This document shows, one piece after another, positions 20,775-55,890 of a stretch of 64,000 bases of DNA. This DNA comes from Gnetum montanum (Eukaryota; Plantae; Gnetophyta), in assembly GCA_015680685.1 (NCBI GenBank), contig MNCI01002119.1:338923-402922 (forward strand), in the 5' to 3' direction. Positions within the stretch are counted from its first letter, which is position 1. Each line of letters begins with the position of its first letter. A program made the translations under genes and the position numbers. Under the pieces are notes generated by a model that ran no database searches, was not told where the DNA came from, and saw nothing but the letters and a program-made list of their open reading frames with translations.

Positions 20775-20779
20775 GAATT

Positions 20780-21382: not shown

Positions 21383-21436
21383 CTAGCCTTACATATGCTG
21401 CTTACATAAATTCAGCTAGTCAAACTAGTTATACAC

Positions 21437-25466: not shown

Positions 25467-25474
25467 ACAACAAT

Positions 25475-31500: not shown

Positions 31501-32051
31501 GCCAAGCAGAATCTACAAATAAAACGATCACCATGGTGCTCAAGAAAATGCTGAATCAGAGCAAAAGACGATGGCACGAGTAGTTAATCTATGCACTATG
31601 GGCATACCGAACAACACACCGAACATCCATAGGTAAAACACCGTATAGCCTAGTATACGGATCTTAAGTTGTCTTACCTTTGGAGTTATAGGTTCCCTCA
31701 CTGTGGATAATGCTCTCTAGTCTCCTTGATGAAAGCCAGAACAATGAACTGTGCATCGCTGATCTTGACTCGGTGGAGGAAGAAAGGGTAAGAACGCTTG
31801 ATCAAATCGAATGGTACCAGAGACAGCAATGGCAACGTCATCAACATGATCCACATAAGCAGCCGATCAAGAAAGGTGACCTAGTTCTCAAGGTGGTCCG
31901 TGAACACTTAGATAAATTCTCAGCTAACTGGGAAGGACCTTACTTAGTCACTAAAGCATATGACAATGGGGCATTCAAGCTCGCCGACATGGACGAAAAC
32001 GAATTGGCCAATCCTACGAATCACATGTACTTGAAACCATTCTACATCTAA
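28572..32051 (+). pseudogene. pol: D pol: RT, RNase H, archaeal-type RNase H, integrase
   Basis: CIDFRDLN, DGFSGYNQI, YVDD; second RNase H YFD..TNNVAEYEGL..GDS; HHCC and D,D35E integrase (WGLDIIGP, DNGPQF, NGQAE); ends KFSANWEGPY..YI with no chromodomain; several in-frame stops. Confidence 0.95.
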
Positions 32052-32069
32052 TGATCCCAAGGTACGTCA

Positions 32070-32380
32070 CGGTCCTGGCATCATGACCTAAAAATGATAC
32101 CATAGAACAATCCCAGAGCTATGACTTAAAACTAGCACCATAGAATGTCCTGGCGTCATGACGGTAAACCGACACCACAGAGCTTTGTCTGACATGACAC
32201 TAAACTATCACGTTTATTCACCAAAGTCTACTAAAACTATAAACTGGCTAGCCTCTTCATAGTCCTCCACGACTATAAACTAGCATGGCATCGTCCACTA
32301 CAACGCTAAAATGGTAACGTCTAACGGGTTATGACGTAAAACTAATCCATGAGAGTCCGTCAAGACTATAAACTGGCAAC
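32070..32380 (+). repeat. Hairpin+TAAACT motif array after D's pol stop
   Basis: TGTC-TGACAT-GACA-CTAAACTA, TAGTC-CTCCAC-GACTA-TAAACTAG, AGTC-CGTCAA-GACT-ATAAACTGG and degenerate copies. Confidence 0.8.
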
Positions 32381-33430
32381 TTCTTCACTAGCCTACCAAT
32401 CTGTAGCTAAAATCAAAAGACATATCATCATCAACCTACTCAATGAATTCATCACATAGACTCCGACAATATCGCTGCTGCTCAATCTTGTTTGCCTGCG
32501 GTTGCACGTGGTGTTCCATCCCATCAATTGCATCCATATTTAAAGTGTTAAGCTAACTCATTCACTTGTGGTTTTCTTATCTTCTTGGAGTTGTGTTTGC
32601 AGGATGACACCTAGAGGTGCTCGTACATGAATGCACTTCATCATGACGACAAGGTACCACATTGTTTTTGATGCATGTAACCAGGTTAATCAAACCGTTC
32701 ACAAGTACATTCCCAATTCCCTGAATGTTCCTCATTCCCTAGCATGTTCTCTCTACTCTGTTCAGTTACACCCCCTTTGATACATTCCATTCATCCCCAA
32801 AATTCTGGAAGCATTTTTTCTCACTATAACTCTACAACCAGTGGCAACACAAAATGATGCATAGCACATGACACAAACACGAGTACAAAACTGACAGCAA
32901 GCTCTTTCCAAAAGAAAAAAAAAGAACAAAGAAAGACTCAAAGAGCAAAATCCATCACAAGACCCATTGACACTTCCCATATAAGCCCTAGGTAGGAAGG
33001 TACTTGTCCTGGAAGAAAAAATTTGTGTCTCAAAAAATCATGTTGCATCCCACCACATGGCTTTGGTTGTGACAATGAGTTCTCTTAAATAGGATACAAG
33101 AGTCTCGTTCCTCCAAAGGATACACATCCCATGTCTTCGTCCCAAGTCCACTAAATACTAGCTATTGACAAAGACCAACATGAAGTGTCCACATAAGAGC
33201 ATTCCTCTTTCCAAAATTAAACAAAATCATCCTTTCATCAATCCCTAATCTCACAGTAACACACCTTCTCCCTATGCATCTCAAAACCTCATTTCCAAAT
33301 CCCATGTACTTCTAAACACAGTGCGATGACATCTGGCCAAGTGCCGACGGACAATGCTTGATACCCAGTTGCTCGTGCTATTTTGTACTTCTTTTTGATG
33401 CCTCTCAGATAGATTCCTCCAGATGTCAAC

Positions 33431-33439
33431 AAAGAGGGG
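33431..33439 (+). promoter_or_regulatory. Polypurine tract of D
   Basis: AAAGAGGGG just before the 3' LTR. Confidence 0.8.
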
Positions 33440-33443
33440 CCAA

Positions 33444-34781
33444 TTAAACACCATAAAATTTTTCCTAGCACTTTCAGACGATCCAAGTTAAGTCATGGAG
33501 CTGCCCAAGCATCAGTACAGCATGAACAAACTTGGACGCCTTCGAAACAGCTCCCAATGGTTCATGATTCAATAGGAAAGGTTCCCCTGGGACCCACAGG
33601 TAATTGCACCAGCTTTCGGCATCTAGAATCAAAGGTTTCACGCTCAAAATACTTGGTCTTCACTAAATACACTTTGGTTACATTTTCTTACGCTGCACAG
33701 CGTAAGGCTCAGCGTCACCAACTTTTGGAGCCCCGAAACTGAGCCAAAATAGGCCAAAATTGAGCACAAGGGCCCCCCATGACCTCCACTAATGGTTTCC
33801 CAAGGTCCCAAGCCCTCAGAATCTTGATTTTGGGCTCAAAAATACACTATTTTCACTGCTCACGCCCAGGTCACGCCCAGCTCACACCCAGCTCACGCTG
33901 ATAGTGTGAGCCTAGCGTGAGCTGCCAAAAATGGCCCAGAACATATCAGACGCATGCCGAAAACACGCCAAGGCAAGATCCAGTGGTTGATCTAAGCGAG
34001 CCAGAATCAAATTTTGAATTCATTGTTAATGTTCACTATAAGATTCGCAATTTGTGAATTTGCCAAGCTCTTACGCTGCTTCCATGGGTGTAAGATAGCT
34101 TGCGTTGTAAAATATAGTGCACCCGGTCTAGAATGTAGTTTGCCCATGTACACCTATCATGTGATCCATTTTTCTTGCATCTCATAGTCGCTGATCTGAT
34201 TCATTCCTATGCCCAAGACAAGTAGATAAATACCCTATTCAAACACATAAACGAGGTTGGCAAATGTTGGTAGAAATTTAGCAAGAAACCAGCAATCCTG
34301 AGCACGAATGCACGTGATTCCTAGCACCTGCAAACACCATGCATCGGGGCTTGATGTCTGACTTGCAGCACAACTACGTTTTGACTGGTGCACGTTTTTG
34401 TCAATTAATATAATACAGTTTCATTTTTACCATCCATTGTCTTATTCTGAGTTATTTTTCTGCATTTTCCATTTCGCTGCATCTTCCTGCATACATTCTA
34501 TTTCTGTTACTTTCATTACACCTTATTACGCCCATTATGCCCTGCTACGTTTGTTACGCTCTACTATTTTCTCTGTTCTACGTTTGTAACGATAACCCCA
34601 GCGTAGGCAATAGCGTACGCTTAGGGAAGTCCTTGGTTGATCTACATGCGGACCATCCAAGGCACTCTACCTTCATTATTCTAGTGTGTCCTCACGCGAA
34701 GGCAGGGTCGTCTGTATCTCTCTGGAAATCTTTCGGCATTCGTTTCCTTCTAGCCTTATGCCGATGATTTCGAACAGCACA
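33444..34781 (+). repeat. 3' LTR of D
   Basis: Collinear with 19409-20774; ends ACAGCACA, followed by the TSD. Confidence 0.93.
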
Positions 34782-34786
34782 ATGAT

Positions 34787-35548
34787 GTAGCAGAAAGTTC
34801 CCCAGGAGGTCATGAAAGTTGTAGTTAGTTGATGTTCTAGGTTGATACGGATTTGATTATAGCCCGAAAACCCATCCATGAAGGATAGCAAGGCATGTCC
34901 AGCTGTTGTATTGATAAGCTAGTCGATACTCGGTAATGGGAAGTTGTCTTTAATTATTGCTTTGTTCAGATCGTGGAAGTCTATACAGATGCGTATTCCT
35001 TCCATTTTCTTAGAAACAATGATGATGTTAGACACCCAATCTGAATAATCAACCGTGCAGATGAAACTAGCTTGATATAGCTTAGTGCTTTCATCACGCA
35101 CTGCCAACATGATTTCGAGCTTAATCTTCTGTGCCTTCTATTTAATTGCTTTGATATGTAGGTATAAAACTATGTTGTGCTGTATTAGTCTCGGGTCTAA
35201 ACCTGGCATGTCTTCGTATGACCATGCAAATGTGGCAATGTTATTTTGGAGCACTCGAGATATGGCGCTTTGCGTTTGTTGGTCAAGAAGAGAACTAACT
35301 TTCAGAGTTTTACTTTCTCCTTTGTGCGTAACAATAGGGACCTCGGTAAGGGGATCCTCGGTCACATCACCAGCTTCCAGGTCTAAGGTTCTAGCCAAAT
35401 GTTCTGGCTAGTTTGGGGATGTTTCTGAGGCTGCTATGGTTATGTCACAGGAGAAAGCATCAGTTCCTATCAAAGGAAGATCAGGCTGCCTAACAATTTT
35501 CCCGTATGGGCTAGTTATGGCTAGGGGTGCAAGTAAAGCTTCGTCCAT
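34787..35548 (-). pseudogene. pol: C pol, 5' part (RT N-terminus), copy 1
   Basis: ATG at 35548 (MDEALLAPLAIT..), FAWSYEDMPGLDP, WVSNI..ICIDFHDLN, MDGFSGYNQI. Confidence 0.9.
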
Positions 35549-36122
35549 TTGTGAATTTGACCTGCAAAACTGCCAAGAATGGAAGTTGTTACATTTTTTT
35601 TGTTACCATGATACAATGATAGAAGGTTTTAGTGGTACATGTTAACAGGGTGCCAATTTAAGGTCTTAGCGGACTGTTACAATATACACAATTTGCAAGA
35701 AAACAGCAAGCCAAGTCTCCTAGGTATTAGCGTAAGGTTTCTGTGAACTATGATGAAAGGTATACCGTGGCATGTCTAGTGTGTCAATATAGCTAATTTA
35801 TAATTTTATGCTCACCGTAATTAATGCGACTGAATTACGAGATGATAAGCTATGTGTTAGTTTAGGGTCTTTTTGGACTGCAATCAATGCAACATCTACG
35901 AGATTAATGTTACGATCTTCATGCTTCATGTGAAATTGACATGCTTGCCTTTCGGGAAAGTTCGCGTTGATCGGATACGAAAAATAGCAAGTCTTCACCA
36001 TCACGCTTATAAGTAGATGGTTCATCCTGAGAGTAATACTGTAAACATTACGAGGTTGAGCTAGGTTAAAGCAGAAAGAAAGCTTAAGTAAACAATGTTT
36101 TGAAGATAGTTTAGGCGTAACC

Positions 36123-38147
36123 ATGGCACCGAAGACCAAAGGCAAACATGCCAAATTGGTAAAGATCGATGAAGTGTAGGAGAGTTTGGAATGGATTTCA
36201 AAGGCCCAGGTTGAAACTAGGGAGGCTACTCCACTTGCCCGGTAAATCATTTTTTATATCTTTCCTACAAAATTGTTGTTTTTATTGTCATGGCATTGTA
36301 ATTGTATTTGTTTCAAAGATGTGCATTGTGTTAGATGTTGATACCTTCCTGTGTGAGCTAAGCTATTGTGATTTGTAATATTTACCCCTATTGCTGTTGT
36401 CAGAGATATACCTTGCGCTGTCACAAGGGTTTGAGTGATCTTGGGTAATATTATGCAAGCACGATGCATAACTAATTAGGAGTCTAGGTATTGTACCCTT
36501 CTGTAGTGTAGATAGGGTTTCGTTATCTTGCCCATGATGGTTGCATGTTACACTGGAGTAACATGCGGTGTTACCTTTATCACCATTGTCAGAGATAGAC
36601 CTTGCACCGTTGCGAGGGTTTGGGCGGTTTTAGTAGTGCATCTCTAGTGTAACATGTAATTTTCTGGAAGTCAAGATAATGAGAACCCTAGTGTTGCGTA
36701 ATTGATTTTTATGAGCATTTTTTTTTGATTTGGTGGTTCTGATGTTGTTATATGTCTAAATTATTTTTTTCTAATGGTATTGTGCTTCATTGTAAAGGAT
36801 TACACTAAAGCCCTTCCTGATTGTCTTGGACATCATGGGAGTTTTGTTCTATTTACATGTCCCTACATCCAGTGTTCCTCCTCCTCATGCTCATGTAGGG
36901 GAGGAGGAGGTTTGGTTCCGAAAAGGCACACAGGAGTTTTTGCAATTTTTGCTACATAATTTCAGTGTAATTATCTGGTCGCATCTATCGGCCGAAACTA
37001 CCACCATCATTTTCGAGATGCCACTGGTTGGGTCAATGCAGAGTAGCTTAACATTTCTAGTGTACGAATCAATCAAGACCGTGAGGGGGCAAGACTACGA
37101 ACAGAGTGCTAGGGGTTTGAGGTGTTTATCTTGGATCTGGGAGATGCCCAGGTTTGATTGTTATCACACCTACAACACGCTGTTCGTGGCTCGTCATCTC
37201 ACGACCTATTTCCAGAATCCACCTAGCATCGTGTATTATGCTAGCGGGTAAGTGTTTTCATGGTGTCATGATGTGCTAACTATTGTATTAAGTATAAAAA
37301 ATTGTCTACATTCTGTGATGTAGGTTTTTCATTGATGCAAATGGTCTTCAAGGTGATATGGGCATGTTATCCATGGCCGAGATGGCCATAAAGGAATTCA
37401 GTTCCATCATCAACATGCATGCTGGTGTCCTAGGACAACTAGGATTTGAAATCCCACACTACCCTATTTGCTATGTCAAATTCTTCGCCAAGTGTAAACG
37501 CTCAGGATGGCTGGACAAGGAGTGGACTTTGGATCATCCTATTACCATTGAGGATGTGTAGGAGAAAATTCTATTGTTTTCTTTGCCTTTTGGATGAGGT
37601 AAATTATGCTATGATTTTCAAATGTACAATCTTTTAGGATGGGAACAGTGTATGAAGTTGTATTATTTTGTTGTGCTGTCTAATTTGTTATTTTATGTTC
37701 ATAGTTAGGAAATTATGGGAGGTTACGGTGATAGCTTCTGGGCATGAGGTGAGCAATCTCTTCTTCCGTTATGGTGACATAAAAGAAGCGTAATGTTGGC
37801 TCTACCACGGAGTGGCCCTAGTTTCCATAACCAATAACCTCCAGGAAGCTGGACTGATGGAGCTATTTTTGGCTGTAATCCCCGATGTCACTGTAGTGGA
37901 AATGGTAACCCTAGTCGACTGCTTCAGCGAAGAAGTTGAGCATCTTCACATGCGCGTGCGTAATGTGGATGTGAGTTTTGATATTAACACTTGACTATTC
38001 ATCAACTTTTTTAGTGTTCCTTCTGATGGTCTTCTAGTAGAAGGAAGGTCAAAGAGGGGTTCTAAGTGTCAGAAGGACATAGAGGAGTGGCTAGGGGTTA
38101 AAAAGAAACCAAAAGGCATTCTCGCCGACAAGATCAAGCTAGAGGTG
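36123..38147 (+). pseudogene. Truncated duplicate of C's antisense accessory gene (exons 36123-36241, 36798-37247, 37324-37598, 37705-38147)
   Basis: GT-AG boundaries with consistent phases; cut at the duplication junction. Confidence 0.75.
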
Positions 38148-39005
38148 GCCAAAAATGGCCCAGAACATATCAGACGCATGCCGAAAACACGCCAAGGCAA
38201 GATCCAGTGGTTGATCTAAGCGAGCCAGAATCAAATTTTGAATTCATTGTTAATGTTCACTATAAGATTCGCAATTTGTGAATTTGCCAAGCTCTTACGC
38301 TGCTTCCATGGGTGTAAGATAGCTTGCGTTGTAAAATATAGTGCACCCGGTCTAGAATGTAGTTTGCCCATGTACACCTATCATGTGATCCATTTTTCTT
38401 GCATCTCATAGCCGCTGATCTGATTCATTCCTATGCCCAAGAAAAGTAGATAAATACCCTATTCAAACACATAAACGAGGTTGGCAAATGTTGATAGAAA
38501 TTTAGCAAGAAACCAGCAATCCTGAGCACGAATGCATGTGATTCCTAGCACCTGCAAACACCATGCATCGGGGCTTGATGTCTGACTTGCAGCACAACTA
38601 CGTTTTGACTGGTGCACGTTTTTGTCAATTAATACAATACAGTTTCATTTTTACCATCCATTGTCTCATTCTGAGTTATTTTTCTGCATTTTCCATTTTG
38701 CTGCATCTTCCTGCATACATTCTATTTCTGTTACTTTCATTACACCTTATTATGCCCATTATGCCCTGCTACGTTTGTTACGCTCTACTATTTTCTCTGT
38801 TCTACGTTTGTAACGATAACCCCAGCGTAGGCAATAGCGTACGCTTAGGGAAGTCCTTGGTTGATCTACATGCGGACCATCCAAGGCACTCTACCTTCAT
38901 TTTTCCAGTGTGTCCTCACGTGAAGGCAGGGTCGTCTGTATCTCTCCGGAAATCTTTCGGCGTTTGTTTCCTTCTAGCCTTATGCCGACGATTTCGAATA
39001 GCACA
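38148..39005 (+). repeat. Duplicated 3' portion of D's 3' LTR
   Basis: Copy of 33924-34781; lacks the LTR 5' end and is followed by the same ATGAT flank. Confidence 0.9.
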
Positions 39006-39010
39006 ATGAT

Positions 39011-39772
39011 GTAGCAGAAAGTTCCCCAGGAGGTCATGAAAGTTGTAGTTAGTTGATGTTCTAGGTTGATACGGATTTGATTATAGCCCGAAAACCCATC
39101 CATGAAGGATAGAAAGGCATGTCCAGCTGTTGTATTGATAAGCTAGTCGATACTCGGTAATGGGAAGTTGTCTTTAATTATTGCTTTGTTCAGATCGTGG
39201 AAGTCTATACAGATGCGTATTCCTTCCATTTTCTTAGAAACAATGATGATGTTAGACACCCAATCTGAATAATCAACCGTGCAGATGAAACTAGCTTGAT
39301 ATAGCTTAGTGCTTTCATCACGCACTGCCAACATGATTTCGGGCTTAATCTTCTGTGCCTTCTATTTAATTGCTTTGATATGTAGGTATAAAACTATGTT
39401 GTGCTGTATTAGTCTCGGGTCTAAACTTGGCATGTCTTCGTATGACCATGCAAATGTGGCAATGTTATTTTGGAGCACTCGAGATATGGCACTTTGCGTT
39501 TGTTGGTCAAGAAGAGAACTAACTTTCAGAGTTTTACTTTCTCCTTTGTGCGTAACAATAGGGACCTCGGTAAGGGGATCCTCGGTCACATCACCAGCTT
39601 CCAGGTCTAAGGTTCTGGCCAAATGTTCTGGCTAGTTTGGGGATGTTTCTGAGGCTACTATGGTTATGTCACAGGAGAAAGCATCAGTTCCTATCAAAGG
39701 AAGATTAGGCTGCCTAACAATTTTCCCGTATGGGCCAGTTATGGCTAGGGGTGCAAGTAAAGCTTCGTCCAT
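39011..39772 (-). pseudogene. pol: C pol, 5' part, copy 2
   Basis: Duplicate of 34787-35548. Confidence 0.9.
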
Positions 39773-40346
39773 TTGCGAATTTGACTTGCAAAACTGCCAA
39801 GAATGGAAGTTGTTACATTTTTTTTGTTACCATGATACAATGATAGAAGGTTTTAGTGGTACGTGTTAATAGGGTGCCAATTTAAGGTCTTAGCGGACTG
39901 TTACAATATACACAATTTGCAAGAAAACAGCAAGCCAAGTCTCCTAGGTATTAGCGTAAGGTTTCTGTGAACTATGATGAAAGGTATACCGTGGCATGTC
40001 TAGTGTGTCAATATAGCTAATTTATAATTTTATGCTCACCGTAATTAATGCGACTGAATTACGAGATGATAAGCTATGTGTTAGTTTAGGGTCTTTTTGG
40101 ACTGCAATCAATGCAACATCTACGAGATTAATGTTGCGATCTTCATGCTTCATGTGAAACTGACATGCTTGCCTTTCGGGAAAGTTCACGTTGATCGGAT
40201 ACGAAAAGTAGCAAGTCTTCACCATCACACTTATAAGTAGATGGTTCATCCTAAGAGTAATACTGTAAACATTGCGAGGTTGAGCTAGGTTAAAGCAAAA
40301 AGAAAGCTTAAGTAAACAATGTTTTGAAGATAGTTTAGGCGTAACC

Positions 40347-43300
40347 ATGGCACCGAAGACCAAAGGAAAACATGCCAAATTGGTAAAGATCGATGAAGTG
40401 TAGGAGAGTTTGAAATGGATTTCAAAGGCCTAGGTTGAAACTAGGGAGGCTACTCCACTCTCCCGGTAAATCATTTTTTATATATTTCCTACAAAATTGT
40501 TGTTTTTATTGTCATGGCATTGTAATTGTATTTGTTCCAAAGATGTGCATTGTGTTAGATGTTGATACCTTCCTGTGTGAGCTAAGCTATTGTGATTTGT
40601 AATATTTACCCCTATTGCTATTGTCAGAGATATACCTTGCACTGTCACAAGGGTTTTAGTGATCTTGGGTAATATTATGCAAACATGATGCATAACTAAT
40701 TAGGAGTCTAGGTATTGTACCCTTCTGTAGTGTAGATATGGTTTCGTTGTCTTGCCCATGATGGTTGCATGTTACACTAGAGTAACATGCGGTGTTACCT
40801 TTATCACCATTGTCAGAGACAGACCTTGCACCGTTGCGAGCGTTTGGGCTATTTTAGTAGTGCATCTCTAGTGTAACATGTAATTTTCTGGAAGTCAAGA
40901 TAATGAGAACCCTAGTGTTGCGTAATTGATTTTTATGAGCGTTTTTTTTGATTTGGTGGTTCTGACGTTGTTAAATGTCTAAATTATTTTTTTCTAATGG
41001 TATTGTGCTTCATTGTAAAGGATTACACTAAAGCCCTTCCTGATTGTCTTGGACATCATGGGCGTTTTGTTCTATTTACATGTCCCTACATCCAGTGTTC
41101 GTCCTCCTCATGCTCATGTAGGGGAGGAGGAGGTTTGGTTCCGAAAAGGCACACAGGAGTTTTTGCAATTTTTGCTACATAATTTTAGTGTAATTATCTG
41201 GTCGCATCTACCGGCCGAAACTACCACCATCATTTTCGAGATGCCACTGGTTGGGTCAATGCAGAGTAGCTTAACATTTCTAGTGTATGAATCAATCAAG
41301 ACCGTGAGGGGGCAAGACTACGAACAGAGTGCTAGGGGTTTGAGGTGTTTATCTTGGATCTGGGAGATGCCCAAGTTTGATTGTTATCACACCTACAACA
41401 TGCTGTTCGTGGCTCGTCATCTCACGACCTATTTCCAGAATCCACCTAGCATCGTGTATTATGCTAGCGGGTAAGTGTTTTCATGGTGTCATGATGTGCT
41501 AACTATTGTATTAAGTATAAAAAATTGTCTACATTCTGTGATGTAGGTTTTTCATCGATGCAAATGGTCTTCAAGGTGATATGGGCATGTTATCCATGGC
41601 CGAGATGGCCATAAAGGAATTTAGTTCCATCAGCAACATGCATGCTGGTGTACTAGGACAACTAGGATTTGAAATCCCACACTACCCTATTTGCTATGTC
41701 AAATTCTTCGCCAAGTGTAAACGCTCAGGATGGCTGGACAAGGAGTGGACTTTGGATCATCCTATTACCATTGAGGATGTGTAGGAGAAAATTCTATTGT
41801 TTTCTTTGCCTTTTGGATGAGGTAAATTATGCTATGATTTTTAACTGCATAATCTTTTAGGATGGGAACAGTGTATGAAATTGTATTATTTTATTGTGCT
41901 ATCTAATCTGTTATTTTATGTTCATAGTTAGGAAATTATGGGAGGTTACGGTGATAGCTTCTGGGCATGAGGCGAGCAATCTCTTCTTCCGTTATGGTGA
42001 CATAAAAGAAGCGTAATGTTGGATCTACCACGGAGTGGCCCTAGTTTCCATAACCAATAACCTCTAGGAAGCTGGACTGATGGAGCTATTTTTGGCTGTA
42101 ACCCTCGATGTCACTGTAGTGGAAATGGTAACCCTAGTCGACTCCTTCAATGAAGAAGTTGAGCATCTTCACATGCGCGTGCGTAATGTGGATGTGAGTT
42201 TTGATATTAACACTTGACTATTCATCAACTTTTTTAGTGTTCCTTCTGATGGTCTTCTAGTAGAAGGAAGGTCAAAGAGGGGTTCTAAGTGTCAGAAGGA
42301 CATAGAGGAGTGGCTAGGGGTTAAAAAGAAACCAAAAGGCATTCTCACCGACAAGATCAAGCTAGAGGTGGCTAATATTATTTATCATCTCTTCTAGGCT
42401 CGCACCTTCCCCAAACTACTCTCCTAGGGAAGAATCCTTACCATAGAGCAGGCTTGGATCATGCGGGAGGTTATGGAGGAGGGGACACAGTATAATTAGG
42501 CTAGTTACCTCGCTGAAGGCTTGCAAGCTGAAATGGTCAAGCTTCGCAAGAAGCTTGAGTCATGTTTCAATGTGCAATTTGCCTTTTTCATAGCTTGCTT
42601 TTGATGTTTTGTCGAATTCCTAGTGGTTCTCAGGGATGGAGTCTGGGTGCAGCAAGACTGTAACCAGATTTCCAAACCATGGATTTCCCAGGTCTTTCTC
42701 ACCATCCAATCCCAAGATCCTCCTGAAGGTATCGGAGAGTGATTTTCACTAACGACTAAGGATTTGGTGGTGCCTTGTGTGTGAGGCCAAGATAGCATGG
42801 GTGGCGCACCTCCTTCTTACACTGGCAATGCGTCCAGGGGAAAACACCTTGTAGTAGAAATAGTGGATTCATCAGTTCAGCAAAAAAAACATTATCCAGC
42901 TGTGGAGTCTTTTGGCCCGACTGGAGAAGAGGGAAGAAAACAACGAATTAAATGTCATAGGAACGATCCTCCGACTAGTGAGTAGAAGATGTATTACGCT
43001 ACGTATAGATGTCGTTGCATCGCATAGCGCTTGTAAGAAGTAAGTAAAGTTTTGTTTTGAATAATTGTGTTGTTTGACAGACAAAGGAAAAGATGCAAAG
43101 GAGTTGACCCCTGAAACAGGGGCCATAGTTTTACGGCGTGGAGAGGGGACCCAAATTTTGGAAAAGGAGGCCCCTATTAGTAACATAGGTGGCACACAGG
43201 TTCCTGTGCCTGAAGGAGAGAAGGGTGTAAAGGATGTTGAGGTCCTTTCAGATGATCTGGGAAAGAAGAAGTGGTTTGTCATTGATGAGTTTGACTTTTC

Positions 43301-44798
43301 TGTGGAGGGAAAATCTCTCGCTGCTACTCCTGGGGTTTTTTTTGAATTGAGCTTTGTGTTATCGTAACGTCTCAATTGCCTTTATGTCTACCGTGCTATG
43401 TCTAACTCATTTTGTCTACATAGTAGGCACTTCTAGTAATAGCGGCATACCTTTTTCAGTAATCCCAACTCAGCATTGGGGTGAGACTCTTGATAAATTT
43501 GCCTTCATGAAGGGCATCGTGAACGATATGATCAGTCACCTAGAGTGAATCGATCCTGAGATTGGTATGTTACTATTATTGCGTAGGGATTGTTGTCATT
43601 GCAACATTGCGTTATTTCGTTGCGTCTAACTGTTATTTTTCTGTTACAGGGTCTTGCCTCATATGGGATCCCAAAGAGCCTGTTGACCTAGACATTGCTC
43701 CCGAACCCTCACTAGAGATGACCACAGTGCCACACAGTCTTTATGATGAGATGCACATATGTGCATTACACTTGACCTGCTCATTATGGGAGTGCTAGAA
43801 CGTCAACGAAGATCTTTGGAGGAGGTTGTAGAAAATAGAAAAGGAGAAAATAGTCCTAACTGATAGGGTTGAGGATCTGGAGTCCCGAAATAAATTTTTG
43901 CAAGCTTGGGATACCAATGATAAGAATTGGCAGAAAGCTGTGATTAACTACGCCCGTTATTGGATGGTCGTCAAAAATAACGTCCAAGCCAGCCATGAGC
44001 TCATTAAGCAATGGATGTAAATGGATCTCCTAGCCCAGAAGAGCCAAGACTAGAAGGATTTTAGTGTGAGGGTCCAAACATGGGGTCAGGCACAAAAGGA
44101 CAATAAGCATGTGTATAAGCCAGAAGTGTTGCCTATCACCAACATTACAGGGATTCTGCTGTTGAAGCACGGTCCCTCTAGCTATTCCTTGATGTAATCG
44201 GTGCCTCTAGGATGTATGAAAAGTTCTAGGAGCAAGTGACAGTAACTACCTCCCCTGAGAGAGAAATGACTCTCCCTAGCGAGGAGACTATTGTCCCTTC
44301 CTTCTTTCCTGAACCACCCCGATGGACTCCTATGGAAAAGGGGAAGGTTAAGGCTGGAACTGATTTAGGGGATGGCATTTGGTCTAAGCTCACTGAGGAC
44401 GAGAACATGCAACACCTATGGGTCAACTTGGAAAAAATTACTTTCACAGCTGATGTAGGACCATCACAGGTAAGTTGTACAAGTGTTGTACTCTTGTTAC
44501 GTAGTTTCAGTGGCGACGCTAACATTTGTTTCATATCAAATCGTAGGATCGACATGAGGAGGCACCGCATGAAGAGGAGCGTGATGGAGATGATGGCCCC
44601 CATGAAGAAGGTCCCCATGAGGAGGAGCATGATGAAGGCGATGGCGCTCATGAAGAAGGTCCCCATGAGGAGTCCCATGAAGAGGATCGTTCACATAAAG
44701 AAACACCATGCAAAGAAGATCCTTACGAAGATGACCCTCACGAGGCAGAGGTGGGGTTAAATGACACAAATGAAAGTGGTGGCAAAGGGGATGTGTAG
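40347..44798 (+). pseudogene. Antisense multi-exon accessory gene of C: FCP1/NIF-like HAD domain, PMD-like domain, coiled coil, acidic tail
   Basis: Exons 40347-40465, 41021-41470, 41547-41821, 41928-42977, 43081-~43332, ~43423-43564, ~43650-44469, 44547-44798, mostly with canonical GT-AG; frame-consistent where checked (introns 1-4 and last). Collinear protein homology to 55891-60755. Contains premature stops. Confidence 0.8.
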
Positions 44799-44929
44799 CA
44801 TGCTGATATTAGCTCAAACATCTTGTCACAATGAAAAGGAATAAAGAGTAGCATTCTTGGATCAATGTGATCGTAAAATAATTTTTTTTTTCATTTTTGA
44901 AAGGAAATGTATTGTTAGAAAGGTTATGC

Positions 44930-45095
44930 GTTTTAGGCTGCTACAAGCCATTAATAGTTTAAGGCCATTTTGGGCCAATTTATCATAAGCGTAAAAGAGT
45001 AAAGAGAATTTCCAGTTTTAGGCCATTTTGGGCCATTTCGTCGTAAGCATAAAAAAAGTAAACAAAATTGCCAGTTTTAGGCCATAGCGGGCTGT
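44930..45095 (-). repeat. Hairpin+TAAACT motif array after C's gag-PR stop
   Basis: Minus strand GGCC-CAAAAT-GGCC-TTAAACTA, GGCC-CAAAAT-GGCC-TAAAACTGG, AGCC-CGCTAT-GGCC-TAAAACTGG. Confidence 0.75.
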
Positions 45096-45194
45096 TAAAA
45101 GCGTAATGATAACGATGTGGTATAAAAGAATGTGGACTGCATGACAATAAGCAATGTACACTAATATGAAATGTTATGCTAACATGTTTATCAA

Positions 45195-48100
45195 TTAGCC
45201 TCGTAGTTTCTTCTTGATCATTTTCAGACTTGGCAATGTATATGGGCGAGGAGGTTTATTACTTCGTTCCTCTATGCCGCCATCTTCTCCCTGGAAGGGT
45301 AGTTCAGCCCAAGCCAAGCTATCATCAACTACTATCTTGGTCTATTCAAGTGTTGGGACAGGAGACTGATCTTCGGGGATTTCAACCTCTGAACCGTGTT
45401 CCATTTCTACATTGTTAACGGCTTGAGGGATCATCTTATCACCATGGATGATCACTTCCCCTCTTGTGTAGGGCAAGTGGATCTCTTGATGAATGGGTGA
45501 TGAGACTACCCTTAGTTGGGTCAACCAAGACCTCCATAAGATTAGGTTGAAACTAGGCATCTCCTTGATGATGATAAACGCTACGTCTGTGGGGAATTGA
45601 TCCGATAAACCAAGACCTCCCTAATGTGTACCGTTTCCTTGACTTGCACCCATGCCCTATTGAATGACTTTAAACATGACATTATCGTGGGACTGATCTG
45701 GTCAATCAAGTCCAGTTTATCCACTATGGGGTATGGAATGACATTGGCAGTAGCCCCTTCATCTACGTGTACTCTCTAGATTCTGTACTGGCCAACCTGA
45801 GTAGTGATGAACATGGGTGTTGTTGTCACTTGATCCTTTTTTGGGTTGTCCTTAATGGATTCATCATGAAATGTCAATTGGTGAGACTGTGGCTGTTCAG
45901 CAGTGGAAGGAAGCATGATCGAATGGATTGCTTTTCTTCTATGGGCAAATTCTCTTCCACAGGTATGGACACTAACATGCGAACCATGGCTTCATGATGC
46001 TTTTGTAATGTCATCAACAAGTCATAGAGGCTCAGCATTGTATTTTTATTTAAGATTCTGCTTGATTTGCATAAAAGAATTGAAGAGATCATGCCCATGA
46101 TCAAATTTTTTTCTACCCTTCTCTTCTTCCATTCGTCCTAAGAGACGAATCTCCTGAGGAGGAATGGTTTTTGGTTGAGGGTTGCATTTTCTTGGGTTGG
46201 GAGAAGATGGTCACGTTTGCATGATGTCATCTTTGTCAGAGGGTGGGGCCAAGGGTGTTGAGGCGAGGGGTGTGGGCTTGGAAAACCCTAGCGTAAGTTG
46301 GTCCTTGGCTGTGTTATCCATCATACGCTCTTCTCCCTTCCTGTTAGGTTGTGATTGGAGCGTTAGCTTAGAGATTTTTTCCTACATAGTAGGAGCAATT
46401 GATGGCTTTGACACCCTGATGACAAAGGGTGTCCTAGGTGTGGGCGTGGGCTAGGCCACAACTTTACTAGTAGTGGGCTATGGAACGAGGGTTTGAGACG
46501 GGACTCAGAGAACAAAAGGTTATCGTTGAGCTACACTTGTTGATGTTGATGGGCTTGTCATCTAAGGTAGGTGAGGAGGTACACTCAACACAAAGGGCTA
46601 CTTTGGCTATTCCTAGCTATCTCCCTCTATGCCCACTATATTGATAGTGTACCTTGCATTATTTGCATTTAACGGGTCTTGGTACACATGCATGGACTGG
46701 TTTTCCGAACGGACTAGACTACTACTATCTAAGATCAATTTACCTTGGTTGATCATGCATTGAATGTCATCTTTCAATGCCCATCTGTAATCCGTGTCAT
46801 GACCACACAGCTGGTGATAGTCACAGAAAGGATCCAGCCTAATGTTTTTGGGAACTGTTGGTTCGTTAGGTAGAGCCAAGGAGGGGTTCTTAAGTAGATC
46901 ACAATGCCTTCTATGGTGTTTTAGACCCTTCTCAGATACCTTCTTTTGTTGAATGTGGCTAGTTCCTAGTAGTTGCTTCAAAATTTCTGAAGGCTTTACA
47001 TGTAGAGCTGTGTATTTTGAGCGATCTTTACACTCAAAATTAGGCTTCGGCTATGGGGATGCCTCAGGGGCGGGTGATGTTTCCTGATCGGTGCTATTTG
47101 AGCTAGTTGCGACCTCAGCAAGTGTCGTAGATACTTTCTTGTTGTTATTTTTCTTCTTGGTCCCTTTGGCCACCACTACTATGGTCATTGTTGTAGCTTT
47201 GCCTTCGTCTTTTCCCTTGTTGTGGGCATTTTTGTAGACCATGTATGCTAGATCTTTACTAGCCTCTACTGCATCTTGAATGCTCTTAGTCTAAGTGAAG
47301 GCTTGGCTGAGGGAGTGGGGAGTAAGGTAATATAATTTGGACTTAATGAAGTCATTGACTACCCCATTGAAGATTGCCAATAGATGGGCCTCCATGATAG
47401 GTTCACGGATTTCATTCAAGGTTGCGCTCCACCGCTGTATAAGCTTTTGAACTAGCTCAAGTGGATCTTGCTTGACTCCCATGAGCTGATCCAGCATGAC
47501 TTATGGTTTCAGGTTGTATTTGAAACGAGTCATGAATTAAGTTAATAGCTCTTCCAAGGTTCAGATGGAAGAGCGTGGAAGTGCACGATACCAATCTAAA
47601 GCTTTATCCATTAGGGACATAGCAAAGACATGAATGATGGTATGTGATCATTACTATAGCATTGGGATTTCCTTCCCCATTTTATTTTGTAAAATGGAGG
47701 AGTGGCATCCCAGGAGGTAATGACAAAATAGGTACTACTAGACTAATAGGATCATCATGGTAAAAATCCATGACCTGTATTGTATCATAGCTGGTAGCCT
47801 TGAGGTGTTTAACTTCCTCAGTGAGGGTTTGAATAAGCTAGAAGACTTGATCCAGACCTATGGACAAAGAGGTGGGTTGTGAAATGGCAGGAGGAGCCAT
47901 GCTAGGTGGTAGGATAGGGGTGGTAGCTTGGCCTATGTGTGATGTTATTGGAACCATCCTTGTAGGCGGTGTCACTTGTTAAATCCACCACTCGGTAGGT
48001 GGTGTAGATGGGACAACCACCGTCAACTGTGCCATGGGATACGCTATTTTCGTGGTTAGGGGCACAGAAAATGACCCTACAGTGGGGTTTAGGGTCTACG

Positions 48101-48922
48101 GGACTTGGTGCTGATGGTGGTGAATATGGGACTTCTACGTAGGCTGCACAACAAGGGATGATGTGTTTGGAACCCACCACACAGTAGTGGCGGGTCTTGT
48201 CATGTAAGCTGGGATGAATGTAGGTGCTATGTGTAATTGCAAAGTAGGTGCTGTGTGCACATATGGTGACATAGGTGCAGGCATACGATGAGATGGATTA
48301 GCTAACTGTGCTTGCGGAGGAATGATTTGTGAAGGGTCATCACCCAGAAGGGTAGCTGAAGAGAAAAAATGTGATTGGGGCAAGTGCAGGACATGGTTAG
48401 CATTAGATAATGACAAGGGTGTAGTGACCATGAACAACGGATTCACACGGGACACCATGGAGGGAGGGGCCATAGCAAAGCTAGTGTGACTACCTCCCTT
48501 GGAATGGAAATATAGATCCTCTTTCCCATCATGAAGTGCTTCATCACGAAACAACTCCTCTCTTGTTCTATTGATGCCCTGGCCATCAACAGTTGGTCTA
48601 AGATCCACTGTTGTTGGTCCGTCAGAGGTATAGTGGCATTAGGTGAAGGAATGAATTCCTTCCCATTGTAGTATATGAACTCATATTCACGTTTTTCTTC
48701 GAGTTCTTGTGGATACATAGGAAAATTTGCTGCAAGTTTAGCATAGAGGAAATTGTAATGTTCCCTGCACTGAGCATGTTCCTCAGGCTCTTTATTTTGG
48801 AGCCTGAGGGATCGACGCAGTTGAACTGGACTAGTTGGCGGCTCAACAAAAGGAGGTGTAACTTGCAGCATCCAAGGGTTTTTGAGGTTAGCAGTGTCAA
48901 CAACGGTGGTTGATGCGGGCAT
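45195..48922 (-). pseudogene. gag: C gag-protease
   Basis: LRRSLRLQNK, gag core, knuckle CDYHQLCGHDTDY, protease region, tail WAELPF..KKKLRG*. Confidence 0.88.
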
Positions 48923-49160
48923 TTTCTACGCAAATAGAGAGTAATGACATAAGGATAGAGATCATAAGGGCAAAGGCAAGCTAAGGCAAAAGAGAAATAA
49001 TAGGCTTTCTATAGTGTAGGATTCCAAAGGAATCATCAAAGCAACTGATCTTTACCACATGTTCTTGTAAACAACCATGGAGGTATTATATTTATGTTAG
49101 TCAAAAATGGGTACAGAAAGCTTACAGGACTACCCGTGAAGCATAGATCAGAGGTTCAGG

Positions 49161-49177
49161 CCCTCCTTCTAGCGCCA
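49161..49177 (-). promoter_or_regulatory. PBS of C (tRNA-Asn type)
   Basis: Perfect TGGCGCTAGAAGGAGGG on the minus strand. Confidence 0.9.
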
Positions 49178-49183
49178 AAAAAC

Positions 49184-50480
49184 TATAATGATGGAAAACG
49201 TCGAGCGCTGGAAACACCAAGTGAATTTTTGTGTACATAGTTCCAACCCTGGATCCGTGTGAGGGCCATGCTAGAGAAAAAAAATTTGAGGTGCCCTGAA
49301 TGGTCTTGTCGATCAAAAAGGGACTTACTTAAGTAGTAAATTTTGTAGTGATTGGATCACAAGATGATGATTTCAATATGAGGGTATAATATCGATTGAC
49401 GAGAAAACGAGATCTGCTCCAAGATTAGATCTTGAAGGTAGTGATAACATTGTAAACGATGCAAAACAGTTATAAAATCAATGTAAATAAAATGTAACAA
49501 ATCAAATTTGGAGAATGTGCAATCCCGAAATTTGGGATTGAACTTATAGACCAATACGTTGAATATAATGGTTGTAAGCAGACTTCGGTTTAGACGAAGT
49601 GCATGCCAAGAACAAGAAGCTATTCAGAGATGAAACAAGCAAAGGCCAATCTACCTTGTTCTCTAGCCAATTTGGGTACAAGGGAGTCCAACTCGAAGCA
49701 AAATGTCTGTTAACTTCAAATATTTGACCAAAGGCTTCTCTCTGTCACCGTCTATATTCTTTTGATTGCCGATTCTCTTTTGTTCTCTCGCCAATATTTT
49801 GCCAAAATTTCCAACAATTGCCAATAGTTTTCAAATCCAATTTTACCTACCCTTTGATCATTTTCAACTGGGGTATTTATAAGATTAGGGTTAGGAGAAC
49901 AACGCGATTTAGATGAGATGTGTCCTGGGCCCACAAAATACCCTTGACCTAATGTGCCATTGCTGAAGTTTGTAATATTATGTTACGCTACACTCTAAAG
50001 CGTAATATGGCATAATCTAAACTTTTCTTTGATGTTGCAGGATTTTCAAGGCTTCGGTAGCAAACTGTGCTACGATTACATTGCAATATGCTAGGGAGCA
50101 TATCGTGGCATAAGAACCACTAATACTTGAATTTTTCTATCCCTGTCATTGTGACTAGATCGACTATCTATTTGCATTATGCTGCGTTACGCTACATTAC
50201 GCTGCATTACGCTACATTACGCTGCGTTGCATAACATGGCATAATATGCCAAAAGTTAAGATTTTTGAAACATAGCTAACCTTCAAGGTTGAAGCATTGC
50301 CACTACGCACCCCTTGTTTTGTTTTGTCTTCTCAAGTCTATTACGCTATGCTGCGTAGCATAGCGTAATAGGCCCTTAGCCAAAAAGGGAACTTGCTGAG
50401 CTACGCCACTTGTAGAAATATTTTGCCTAAACTTTGAGACCTTGCTGAATCATTGAGGTCTCAAAATTCACGATGTTTCA
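49184..50480 (-). repeat. 5' LTR of C
   Basis: Matches 13858-15123; minus-strand start TGAAACATC; adjacent to the PBS. Confidence 0.92.
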
Positions 50481-50485
50481 ATCTT

Positions 50486-51221
50486 GGGGTGGGGACTCCA
50501 TTTCTGATAGGCATTGTTAGCACATAGGATTCCAGCATGTGCATTTTCGACAACGTGGTTATAGTATAGCAAGGTTTGAGGCCAGCAAAACACACCTACA
50601 TTGTACCATCAGGTTTTCATAGTGGCGTCCAGGACATGTAGCACCTAAACCACATTTATCTCATACTCCTAGCCTTATAAATACCCCAGCAAACAACACT
50701 CAAAGGGTTGGCTTTTCCGATTGGCTTTCCTGATAAAAACAAAGAATCGGTATCTTTACATTAATAAGAGTAGTTGGCTTGTCGACATCTAGCATTGACT
50801 GGCATAGTTGGCATTTTCTCTTGAGCACTCTAGTTACTCTTGATTCCTCTGTGCACCTCCAATGTTGTATAACTTGTTATACATCCTTCAAAGAGACAAA
50901 GAATCAAAGCTACGATCTTGAAGTGGTGCATTCTCTCACTCTAGTTTGCTTTATGTTTCTATTTATTATCATCGTATTTTGCATCATCTTTGTCCCATTG
51001 CATTTAATAATCATTATATTACACTACGAGCATCATTTTTTGAAGTAAAACATTTATGTAAGGTTAAGATTACACTGATTAAGTTCTTGTCTAATTGACT
51101 GGACCTTTCAGGGCACCCTAAGTTCATTTTCTCCAACGCGGCCCTTGGACAGATCTGGGGTTAAACTGTTTCACCTGGTAACCTCTCAGTGTTCCAGCCA
51201 CTAACATTTTCGGTCACTATA
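50486..51221 (+). repeat. Right part of E's 5' LTR
   Basis: TATAAATA at 50676-50683; ends GTCACTATA; collinear with B LTR 10950-11749. Confidence 0.82.
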
Positions 51222-51226
51222 GTTTT

Positions 51227-51243
51227 TGGTGCTAGAAGGAGGG
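51227..51243 (+). promoter_or_regulatory. PBS of E
   Basis: TGGTGCTAGAAGGAGGG. Confidence 0.88.
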
Positions 51244-51460
51244 CCTTTGATGCCCCTTTTATGTCTCATGGGTAGTTCTGCATGCTCTCTGTACCCCATC
51301 ACTCACCAATGCAAACGTGACACCCTTGTGGTTGTTTATGCATCATGTGGTACAGACTTGTCATAACGACAATTCCTTTGGAACCCTATAGGAAGAAAAG
51401 CCTTCGATCACCTCTTGATCTCTATTTTTCTTGCTCGTAAATCATTTTCAACCTCGCAAA

Positions 51461-54400
51461 ATGATTTCCTCAACCACCATTGTTGCTACCTCAAACCTTG
51501 AGGTCCCCTTTTAGGTTTAGGGCACCATAGGTGCTGAGTGACCACCTAGCCCAATGCAAGGGCCATGCTGATCTCTCAAGATCCAAAATCGATCACCTAA
51601 GAGCTTGGTACAACATACTAAAATTTATAGTTTTCTCTGCACTAAGAACCAGGAGAATCTACCTTTAGATGCCTAAGAACTTGAAGACAAATGTAACTTC
51701 AAGTTTTCTTACTACAATGGGAGAGAATTTATCCCTATGCCTACTGTTTTCATTCCCCTGATGAAAATGCATCAGTGGATCTTAGATCAGCTGGTATGGA
51801 TAAGTAGGCCTAGGGAGCAGCAAGACACGACATCTTACTATGATGAGGTGTTTCAAGAAGGAAAAGAGGACCTGGATTCTTAGTCCAAGGGTGGGGGTCA
51901 AACTAACCCTGCAACTATCCCTTGCATGGCCTTTTGGTCGAATCCACTCTTTACAAATGCTTCCTTTATGATTACCTCCATCCCATCGCATGCTGCAGTC
52001 TCATCGGCCACGGGTAGCCATGCCATGCCCTCGACGTATCAACGTGCTTATCCATCTATCTCATTTCCAGGTGCTATCCCTCCACAATATATTCCTGAAT
52101 ACATCCCTTCATCGTACCAAGCACTGATCATGGCTACCCTGCCTTATGTCCACACGGTACCTACATCGTAATTACATACAGTCTCTGCTTTCATTCTAGC
52201 ATCTACACCTATTCCACCATCAATGGCAAGCCCATCCCCAACCACGTGATGGACCCCAATCACCTCTCTTCCTACTTCGTAACCTTTCCAAATGTCACAC
52301 TATGCTCACTATCAAGCATACTAGGTCCTGAAAATGGTACAACCAAGCGCAGGATTGTGGTCTTCCCCACTGATCACACAAACGACCTATCCTATGGCAC
52401 CACTAGCAGCTGCTACTCTAGCAGCACCACCCATTGGGTGGTGGACAGCATAATCAGCACCCTTTGTAGGGGCCGTCCCAATGGTGCCACCTATGAGCTA
52501 GGTCACTACCCCTACCACAACACCAATGGTGGCCACCCGCACAACCCCACAACTGTCTACGTTACCCTTGGATCTAGATCAAGCATTTCAACTTATCCAG
52601 ACCCTTACTGAAGAGGTTAGATGCCTCAAAGCCATCGGTTTTGATACAATGAAGATCATGGATTTCTACCATGATGACCCCATCAACCTAGCAGTCCCCA
52701 TGCTCACATTACCCCCTAGGATTTCACTCCTTTACTTTACAAAATACAATGGGGAGGATGACCCCAATGCACATCTCGTGACATTTAGATCTGAGTCCCT
52801 TCTACTACAATAATGGCCGCACACCATCATCCGCATCTTTGCTATGTCTCTGATGGGCAAATATTTGGATTGGTACCGTGCACTCCCATGCTCTTCCATC
52901 TCAACCCTAGAGGATTTGCTAACTCAGTTCATAAATCATTTCAAGTATAACTTGAAACCAGAGGTTACGCTGGATCAATTAATGAGCGTTAAGCAAGATC
53001 CACTAGAATCAGTCCAAAAATTTATATAGCGGTGGAGTGCTATCTTGAATGAGATCCGTGAGTCTATCAAAGAGGCCCATATGCTAGCCATCTTTAAGAA
53101 TGTAGTGAATGACTTTATTAAGTCTAAACTATACTACCTAGCTCCATGAACTCTTAGTTAAGCTTTTGCCCAAACCAAGAGTATTCAAGACGTGGCCGAG
53201 GCAAGTAAAGATCTAGCCTATGTTGCATATAAAAACACATATATCAAGAAGGACAAAGAGAAAGGCAAGGCTACAATAGCCACAGTGGCCATTGTGGAAA
53301 ATAAAGCCAAGCCCAACAACAAGAACAACAAAAAGGTGGCCACTACATCAACTAACCCTGTGCCTGACCCAAGCAACGCTACTCAACCCTCTACGTCGAC
53401 ACCCAAAGCACCCACCCTGCCTAAGCCCAACTTCAAGCGTAAAGATCATTCCAAGTACAACCCACTACCAGTCAAGCCTTTAGAACTTTTGAAGAAATTG
53501 CTAGGGGTGGGGTACATTCAATACAAATGGATGTCAGAGGAGGAAACCAAGAGACATCAATGGTACTAAGAACTCCTTAGGAACCCTTCCTTAGCTTTGC
53601 CCAATGAATCCCCAGTTCCTAAGAACTTCAAGCTAGAGCGATTTTGTGACTACCATCAACTTTGTGGTCATGACACAGATTACTATTTATCGTTAAAGGA
53701 TGATATTCAATGAAGGATTGATCAAGGGAAGTTGGTTCTAGATGAAAGAAACCCCATACATCACTAGAATCAATCTATGCACATTTACATAGATCCACTT
53801 AACTCCAACAACACTGGCTACATCATCAACACCATTGGCATAGATAGTAATCTTGAACTACCTCAGCAGCCATTCATGGTTCGTGTGCCTTAGCGTAGTG
53901 CTCCCACACTAGCAGTGGCCAAAAAAACACTGTAGCAACCATTTGTCATAAAGGTCCCTCCTCAAACATCCACACCACTGCCCGCACTAACGCCACAAAC
54001 ACCATTCATCATTAGGGGGCCAAACCACTCAACTACCCCCATTCCATAAAACCAACATAAGATGACATCACAGCCTTCTCGTTCAAGGAAACGAGAAGAG
54101 CATCCAACAAGTGAAATGGCTACAAAATGTACCACCCCAGGTCCTTCCAAGCCTAATCATTCATCCTCTACGTCTATGCCCACCTCATCACCAAAAGTTA
54201 ACACCGCTATGCATGCACAGTCATCACCACCTCACCTAAAAGGGTCCAAGCCCAAACCCAAAACTGCTCCTCCTTAGGAAATTGATCTTCTAGGATGAAT
54301 GGAAGAAGAAAAGGGTAGTAAACAATAAGAAGTTGGGAAAGACCTCATAAGCGCTCTTACTCAGGTAAAATAGGCTGTAAAATAAAAGAACACAACGTTG

Positions 54401-55255: not shown

Positions 55256-55409
55256 TTATTACTCGTGTAGCATAACGGCTCCATTGCTCTGTACCCAACT
55301 AACACCCATTATACATTTATTCTTTGTTTGCTTCACATTCATTCATCTACACTAGGTATCTAACTTTGTTTAAAATCCCACCACATGTCCTCCATTTGCA
55401 CTACACCAT

Positions 55410-55740: not shown

Positions 55741-55890
55741 CAATAAAAAATGATAAAAACATATAACATAAATAAACACAAACCAAAATAAAGAAAATCT
55801 TTTCAAAATTCATCCTCTATTTAAAATCTCAATCAAATAAGGTTTACAACTTTTCTTCAAAAAATTTGAATAAAATCCCCTGCTACAATC

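What the first reader, a model, noticed from the sequence alone, without database searches (positions are those of the whole stretch)
41928..42800. PMD-like domain fused to the pseudophosphatase: a parallel to MAIN/MAIL1-PP7L and a candidate anti-silencing factor
Seen: exon 4 (E equivalent 58848-~57950) gives NLQ(E/D)AGL..LFL...EM..L.(D/N)SF.E.......V.VS.DIN..LF...F.(V/I)..DG and later WIMRE.MEEG..YNWA..L..GL.AEMVKL, the most conserved block between C and E. Established: plant mobile domain (PF10536) and related transposon domains show L.E.W....TF....E.TIT..DV..LLG.P..G and Y.W...L..L patterns. PMD occurs in Gypsy elements, Arabidopsis MAIN/MAIL1 act with the catalytically inactive phosphatase PP7L, and MAIL3 is a PMD-phosphatase fusion. 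Inference: pairing a PMD-like domain with an unrelated (HAD-type) dead phosphatase would be convergent and points to a chromatin or transcription role. The PMD resemblance is remote and judged by eye.
Basis: inference. Interest (0 to 1): 0.8.

Follow-up and report, generated by a model that had tools for sequence, protein, structure and literature searches.

The report
Retrotransposon's backwards pseudophosphatase fusion gene
Two dead copies of a plant-type retrotransposon carry, backwards between their protease and reverse-transcriptase genes, an extra gene whose exons were conserved and are predicted to splice a broken phosphatase-like domain onto a helical domain that may be a distant relative of the plant mobile domain and would likely help the element stay transcribed.

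Summary
The exon is real. It occurs at 41928-42862(+) and 58848-57923(-), 47% identical over 294 aa, with no frameshift. dN/dS is 0.27 and 0 of 16 stops are shared. GT-AG introns at homologous places put it in frame behind a NIF/FCP1-like domain with degenerate catalytic motifs. The gene lies antisense in the 6-7 kb protease-RT spacer of two sister Tat/Ogre-like elements and diverged in step with their pol. The PMD label is unproven. There is no Pfam hit, no relative among 1.84 billion proteins and no usable model (pLDDT 30). My own PMD profiles mostly failed their positive control. I put a PMD/Transposase_32/DUF1985-type fold at about 0.55. Anti-silencing is untested. Antisense PMD ORFs of Tat/Ogre elements are known. 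The spliced, intron-nested gene and the HAD fusion were not found in print. Verdict: new variant of a known kind, interest 0.5.

The parts
41928..42862 (+). Exon 4 of the accessory gene, element C: helical domain of about 200 aa (candidate PMD/Transposase_32-type) plus tail; 9 in-frame stops; 3' end not fixed
57923..58848 (-). Exon 4 homologue, element E; 7 in-frame stops
41021..41470 (+). Exon 2, element C: NIF/FCP1-like HAD domain; motif I reads DIMGV, and motif IV has no acidic residue (motif positions assigned from recalled HAD layout)
   Evidence: (PF03031 E 2.8e-4, 21 bits against cut-off 21.8)
41547..41821 (+). Exon 3, element C (275 nt); no family match
41471..41546 (+). Predicted GT-AG intron, 76 nt
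41822..41927 (+). Predicted GT-AG intron, 106 nt
58960..59785 (-). Exon 2 (59785-59339; motif I reads EIVGV) and exon 3 (59234-58960, 275 nt) of element E, with a 104-nt intron; a 111-nt intron follows (58959-58849)
40347..40466 (+). Candidate short first exon with ATG; weak match to 60755-60636(-)
   Evidence: (E 0.001)
43380..44500 (+). Further conserved exons (match 57136-56038 in E), including a stretch that looks coiled-coil by eye; exon limits not fixed
   Evidence: pN/pS 0.43
37705..38152 (+). Truncated third copy of exon 4 inside tandem duplication 33924-38152 / 38148-42375 (98%)
13860..50482 (-). Host element C: LTRs 49186-50482 and 13860-15125 (87%), gag-PR about 48900-45340, RT 5' part about 39660-38990, RT 3' part-RH-aRH-INT 19408-16710; interrupted by element B
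50877..64000 (+). Host element E (LTR 5' limit not fixed; runs off the window): PBS-like motif 51231, gag about 52400-53800, PR 54200-55009, antisense accessory gene about 60755-55900, RT from about 61400
19411..34781 (+). Related element B nested in the RT of C; its 3-kb PR-RT spacer shows no match to the accessory gene

Best explanation
This is an exon of a now-dead accessory gene that lies antisense between protease and reverse transcriptase in two sister Tat/Ogre-like retrotransposons; it is predicted to be spliced behind a degenerate FCP1-like phosphatase domain, and it likely encodes a distant PMD/Transposase_32/DUF1985-type helical domain that would act in the nucleus to keep the element transcribed. 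Shown: the coding exon, selection on it, co-divergence with pol, conserved splice signals and phases, and degenerate catalytic motifs. Inferred: that the antisense orientation lets the introns survive reverse transcription, because they are not spliced from the genomic-sense RNA; that the spacer is an Ogre-like intron in gag-pol sense; the fold (about 0.55); binding of the element's own DNA or chromatin by the helical domain, with the dead HAD domain as a phosphoprotein-binding adaptor, possibly for the Pol II tail (about 0.3 for the whole chain).
For: Selection: pN/pS 0.35-0.45 across the accessory exons, like gag (0.45). Synonymous divergence 0.64-0.76 against 0.53-0.66 for gag/pol. C and E are sister RTs (99/93) within a window-only clade (100/100) (120 columns, 74 rows). 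Splice phases are conserved. NIF assignment: Pfam E 2-3e-4; Atlas 30 of 30 hits NIF, score 0.91. MAFFT aligns the N-terminal module and a conserved FP with PMD proteins. A mixed PMD profile ends at the same residue (110) in both copies: E 7 of 1000 shuffles, pair 5 of 1000, NIF control 498 of 1000, and E beats 120 of 120 pol chunks. Copy C aligns in register with a weak PF20167 ORF in this window (5 of 300 shuffles). Prior: Tat eORFs are antisense PMD(-coiled coil) proteins (PMC4408406, passages); 431 of 434 PMD eORF hits in Ogre are reverse-strand (PMC6317226 supplement). PMD-C resembles the DUF1985 domain of the anti-silencing factor VANC.
Against: No Pfam family for the whole exons, and none of the named families for 8 of 8 fragments. 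Score of E against L002 is at shuffle level (176 of 300), and 9 of 10 pairwise tests were not significant. The reversed pair also scores against the N-module (19 of 1000); copy C alone is 88 of 1000; the C-terminal module gives 397 of 1000. hhalign against PMD-A: probability 0.2%. Several profile variants were tried, so the best p-values are not corrected, and the regex test was written after seeing exon 4. No convincing nuclear signal: one KKPK in C, none in E; exon 4 is net acidic. Host PMD-C proteins also promote silencing of elements (PMC5418596, PMC7156037). Element B spread without a recognisable copy of the gene.
Confidence: 0.45

Rival explanations
1. The gene and fusion are real, but exon 4 encodes an unrelated helical domain; the PMD pattern is ordinary amphipathic-helix spacing, and the protein serves another step, such as RNA handling, particle assembly or integration targeting.
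For: No Pfam, PDB or database relative. The reversed control scores almost as well as the real pair on the N-module. eORFs fall into 314 unrelated groups in Ty3/gypsy elements (PMC6317226, passages).
Against: Four anchors occur in the same order with similar spacing (119 residues between two of them in C and E, 117 in L002, post hoc). On the whole-domain profile the pair gives 39 of 1000 and the reversed pair 372 of 1000. My negative tests also missed a true PMD.
Confidence: 0.3
2. The domain is PMD-like, but the protein dampens rather than frees the element: it is a self-limiting repressor or a dominant-negative decoy for a host phosphatase pathway.
For: MAIN/MAIL1 with presumably inactive PP7L are needed for element silencing. 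The HAD motifs are degenerate in both copies.
Against: The silencing defect was linked to MORC1 expression, and PMD-C proteins oppose Polycomb. The known element-borne relative, VANC, is anti-silencing.
Confidence: 0.15
3. The cassette is a captured host gene, or a second transposon that landed in the spacer and was carried along passively.
For: It keeps introns, as a host gene would, and element B lacks it. No host genome was available to look for a cellular copy.
Against: All exon blocks stayed under purifying selection while C and E diverged to pS of about 0.65. No inverted or direct terminal repeats were reported around it. No cellular relative of exon 4 was found among 1.84 billion representatives.
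Confidence: 0.1

Closest known systems
Antisense PMD(-coiled coil) extra ORFs of Tat/Ogre LTR retrotransposons (PMC4408406, PMC6317226)
   Same: Same superclade features: aRH between RH and INT, gag-PR separated from RT. Antisense accessory coding region; helical domain followed by a coiled-coil-like region.
   Different: Described eORFs are single ORFs 3' of pol or 5' of gag. This one is multi-exon, sits between PR and RT, begins with a NIF-like domain, and does not hit PF10536 or PF24924.
Transposase_32 (PF20167) / ATHILA ORF1 (PF03078) accessory proteins (PMC11728184)
   Same: Retrotransposon accessory helical domains. Copy C aligns weakly and in register with a PF20167-like ORF at 7865-8467 in this window.
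   Different: No direct Pfam hit; different place in the element; HAD fusion.
VANC / DUF1985 anti-silencing proteins of VANDAL (Mutator-like) transposons
   Same: Element-encoded accessory protein; reported structural homology to PMD.
   Different: DNA transposon. DNA binding and demethylation are shown for VANC and untested here; no PF09331 hit; no tandem target array was looked for.
MAIN/MAIL1-PP7L and the MAIL3 fusion (PMC7156037, PMC9899485)
   Same: A PMD paired with a phosphatase-like domain that is presumed inactive.
   Different: Host genes; PPP metallophosphatase fold, not HAD. The PMD identity of exon 4 is unproven, so convergence is conditional.
Ogre PR-RT intron (PMC6317226)
   Same: A non-coding gap between GAG-PROT and RT; a similar pyrimidine-rich stretch ending in TGGCAG lies before RT in B, C and E.
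   Different: The gap averages 274 bp between ORFs in Ogre. PR-to-RT distance is about 6.2-6.9 kb in C and E, against 0.96-1.4 kb in 32 of 33 related loci.

Membership tests
PMD (PF10536) / DUF7745 (PF24924) | Score at Pfam gathering cut-off | tested here: not met
   0 families for both copies at E<=10; none of these families for 8 fragments. Controls from related loci did hit.
PMD (PF10536) / DUF7745 (PF24924) | Remote profile-profile homology | tested here: inconclusive
   hhalign 0.2%, but the true-PMD control also fails (0.8%). Mixed profile 5 of 1000, reversed 19 of 1000.
PMD / DUF1985 (VANC) fold | Structural match | tested here: inconclusive
   Model pLDDT 29.6; Foldseek no match at E<=0.001. 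The PMD-A control model (pLDDT 43) also found nothing.
Transposase_32 (PF20167), DUF1985 (PF09331), ATHILA (PF03078) | Pfam score | tested here: not met
   only an indirect weak alignment.
NIF/FCP1 HAD phosphatase (PF03031), exon 2 | Family resemblance | tested here: inconclusive
   21.0 and 21.4 bits against cut-off 21.8; Atlas 30 of 30 hits NIF at 0.91. Likely, but just under threshold.
NIF/FCP1 HAD phosphatase (PF03031), exon 2 | Intact catalytic motif I (DxDxT) and acidic motif IV (motif definitions recalled) | tested here: not met
   DIMGV in C, EIVGV in E; the motif IV position reads ARH/SRH. No PDB alignment was obtained to anchor the positions.
Tat clade of Ty3/gypsy (host element) | Additional aRH domain; between RH and INT as in Ogre/Retand | tested here: met
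   RVT_1, RT_RNaseH_2, RVT_3 and rve in that order in element B; C and E align with B through this region. Definition.
Ogre or Retand subclade | RT placement among reference elements | tested here: inconclusive
   Window RTs form their own clade apart from 71 metagenome RTs; best identity 49-54%; no named reference set or outgroup.
VANC-like anti-silencing factor | Sequence-specific DNA binding and loss of methylation on cognate elements | not testable with these tools
   Needs experiments.

The most novel reading that the evidence does not exclude
An undescribed Tat/Ogre-like lineage hides a spliced antisense gene inside its protease-RT intron. The gene encodes a VANC/PMD-fold DNA-binding domain fused to a dead FCP1-like phosphatase: a retrotransposon-borne, sequence-specific anti-silencing factor that docks on phosphorylated RNA polymerase II, and an independent origin of the PMD-plus-pseudophosphatase module.
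Probability: 0.2. Interest if true: 0.85.

Novelty: new variant of a known kind. Interest (0 to 1): 0.5.

Why it matters
The function of extra ORFs in plant LTR retrotransposons is an open question, and among the papers read here a tested anti-silencing protein was shown only for DNA transposons (VANC). A conserved, intron-bearing accessory gene nested backwards in the pol region would be missed by ORF-based surveys. It would also show that retroelements can carry spliced genes over long times. If the fold is PMD-like, it gives a second, independent PMD-pseudophosphatase pairing and a testable hint at how PMD proteins engage transcription.

Tried and rejected
No whole genome is held. Word-index searches found nothing for exon 4 (longer lengths: 1266 candidates, 0 hits; near lengths: 5288, 0) or for the NIF pair (longer: 1044, 0). 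The full HMMER scan gave 1 hit, to profile positions 235-265 repeated 11 times in one protein; I rejected it as repeat noise and did not fetch it. DNA collections: no relative of exon 4 in metagenome (232 pattern matches, 0 confirmed), viral (97, 0) or prokaryote contigs (251, 0); nothing in viral contigs for the 7.9-kb ORF or the RT. PDB sequence searches were empty for exon 4, NIF and L002. Exon 4 gave no domain hit with E below 15 in the 80 related loci. The AlphaFold model and its Foldseek matches are meaningless at pLDDT 30. A PMD-A control model did not retrieve VANC21 or any clear fold. PMD-A-only and L002-only profiles had no power: they missed their positive controls. One search ended at the time limit with partial output. 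Fragment hits to GIPC1_GH2, DUF3864, F-box-like and T3SS_needle_F are far below cut-off and were rejected. In one search the exon-3 and RT rows were in the wrong frame and were redone. RNA reads laid at 85% (131, 17, 63 and 22 reads; none at 99%+) come from related copies, also cover introns and show no intron joint; they are not taken as evidence of expression or splicing. Earlier-findings look-ups returned nothing on this element (one search listed 8 unrelated notes). No tRNA gene in the window, so the primer tRNA was not identified.

Full report
Setting. The window is a nest of Ty3/gypsy LTR retrotransposons; no genome is held. A land-plant host is inferred from RT identity of 49-54% to Ogre-type elements and from CpG depletion (o/e 0.53). 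Element C lies on the minus strand between LTRs 49186-50482 and 13860-15125 (87%). Its RT is split by nested element B (LTRs 19411-20774 and 33446-34781). Element E lies on the plus strand from about 51 kb. B shows RT, RH, aRH and integrase in the Ogre/Retand order (definition in PMC6317226, passages). The three RTs form one clade apart from 71 metagenome RTs, with C and E sisters (120 columns, no outgroup).

Observation. Exon 4 is at 41928 (C) and 58848 (E). With X at stops the copies are 47% identical over 294 aa without frameshift. dN/dS is 0.27, third positions diverge most, and 0 of 16 stops are shared. Exons 2, 3 and 4 are separated by GT-AG introns at homologous places, exon 3 is 275 nt in both, and the joined frame has 11 and 14 stops against 32-36 in other frames. 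Exon 2 is NIF/FCP1-like (Pfam just under cut-off; Atlas 30 of 30), with degenerate catalytic motifs (motif layout recalled). The fusion is therefore well supported from DNA. It was not seen in RNA.

Place in the element. The gene runs antisense between PR and RT in both C and E. PR-to-RT distance is about 6.2 and 6.9 kb, against 0.96-1.4 kb in 32 of 33 related loci. Synonymous divergence of the accessory exons (0.64-0.76) is close to that of gag/pol (0.53-0.66), and pN/pS (0.35-0.45) is like gag's. It was thus inherited with the element and kept under selection, then decayed. B has no match in its 3-kb spacer. All three elements have a similar acceptor-like site before RT, which recalls the Ogre PR-RT intron. 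Antisense orientation would explain why the introns survive reverse transcription (inference).

Is exon 4 a PMD? Direct tests say no hit: Pfam on whole exons and on 8 fragments, protein collections, PDB, and a model of pLDDT 30. To get controls I fetched 80 RT-related loci and found Pfam-validated PMD/DUF7745 proteins in them (5 ORFs scanned, picked from 295 non-pol ORFs). hhalign of exon 4 against 20 aligned PMD-A pieces gave 0.2%, but a true PMD gave only 0.8%, so that test has no power. The C-terminal module gave 397 of 1000; the whole domain gave 39 of 1000, against 372 for the reversed pair. Of 10 pairwise tests only C against the window's PF20167-like ORF stood out (5 of 300). MAFFT aligns the anchors, but it aligns whatever it is given. 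These hints are uncorrected for multiple trials. With the prior that antisense eORFs of Tat/Ogre elements are often PMD proteins, I put a PMD/Transposase_32/DUF1985-type fold at about 0.55. Membership of PF10536 itself is not met.

Mechanism. Most likely the protein was a nuclear accessory factor that favoured the element's own transcription, the helical domain binding element DNA or chromatin as VANC does, and the dead HAD domain acting as a phosphoprotein adaptor. Every functional step is inferred. PMD-C and VANC are reported as structurally homologous (bioRxiv 10.1101/2024.09.27.615353, passages; PMC13547354, passages). Against this: no clear nuclear signal and an acidic exon 4, and host PMD proteins also support silencing.

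Literature seen. Passages only: PMC6317226 (5 supplementary files searched), PMC11963269, PMC5418596, the bioRxiv preprint, PMC11728184, PMC13547354, PMC7156037, PMC12859917, PMC9289625 (supplements not readable, and its full domain chart could bear on novelty), PMC4408406, PMC9899485. First third of PMC7264820. Nine searches were run. By titles and abstract starts, those aimed at a NIF/FCP1 domain in a retrotransposon or at a spliced antisense gene between PR and RT showed no such report, and the eORF domain table searched has no NIF or phosphatase entry. The library lacks most subscription papers, including Steinbauerova 2011 and the VANC21 structure paper, which I did not see.

Verdict. Observation confirmed; interpretation partly supported. 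New variant of a known kind (Tat/Ogre accessory gene). Interest 0.5: the architecture is unusual and solid, while the headline PMD and anti-silencing claims remain open.

Noticed in passing
window 7865-8467 (-): A second, different accessory-type ORF of 201 aa with a weak Transposase_32 match (PF20167, E 0.02-0.055, far below cut-off). It scores 0 of 1000 shuffles against the mixed PMD N-module profile. Its host element was not worked out.
   Followed up: partly
window 33924-38152 / 38148-42375: 4.2-kb tandem duplication (98%) from inside B's 3' LTR to the middle of exon 4; a young duplication or an assembly artefact.
   Followed up: partly
window 25440-28550: Element B has a 3-kb PR-RT spacer without recognisable coding match to the accessory gene; loss or a different cargo.
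   Followed up: partly
window 1526-3391 (-): Open 621-aa gag ORF (PF03732) of another family member, less CpG-depleted than the exons studied; runs of N near 1.1-1.3 kb.
   Followed up: no
window 20888-21405: Array of 36-bp repeats between PBS and gag of element B.
   Followed up: no
window 3626(-), 20784(+), 49173(-), 51231(+), 57272(-): The same 13-nt PBS-like motif follows four LTR ends; a fifth match at 57272 lies inside the accessory gene of E and may be chance. Primer tRNA not identified.
   Followed up: partly
window 10289-10556, 13118-13683, 57711-57797: Short palindromic TGCTA/TAGCA-rich repeats, one of them in a predicted intron of the accessory gene of E.
   Followed up: no
window 42020-42066: 3 RNA reads of one run skip 45 nt with non-GT-AG ends; probably a deletion in a related copy.
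   Followed up: no
L002:16544-17233 (+): A stand-alone PMD ORF (PF10536 E 1.3e-11, weak DUF1985) downstream of an Ogre-type RT; used here only as a control.
   Followed up: partly
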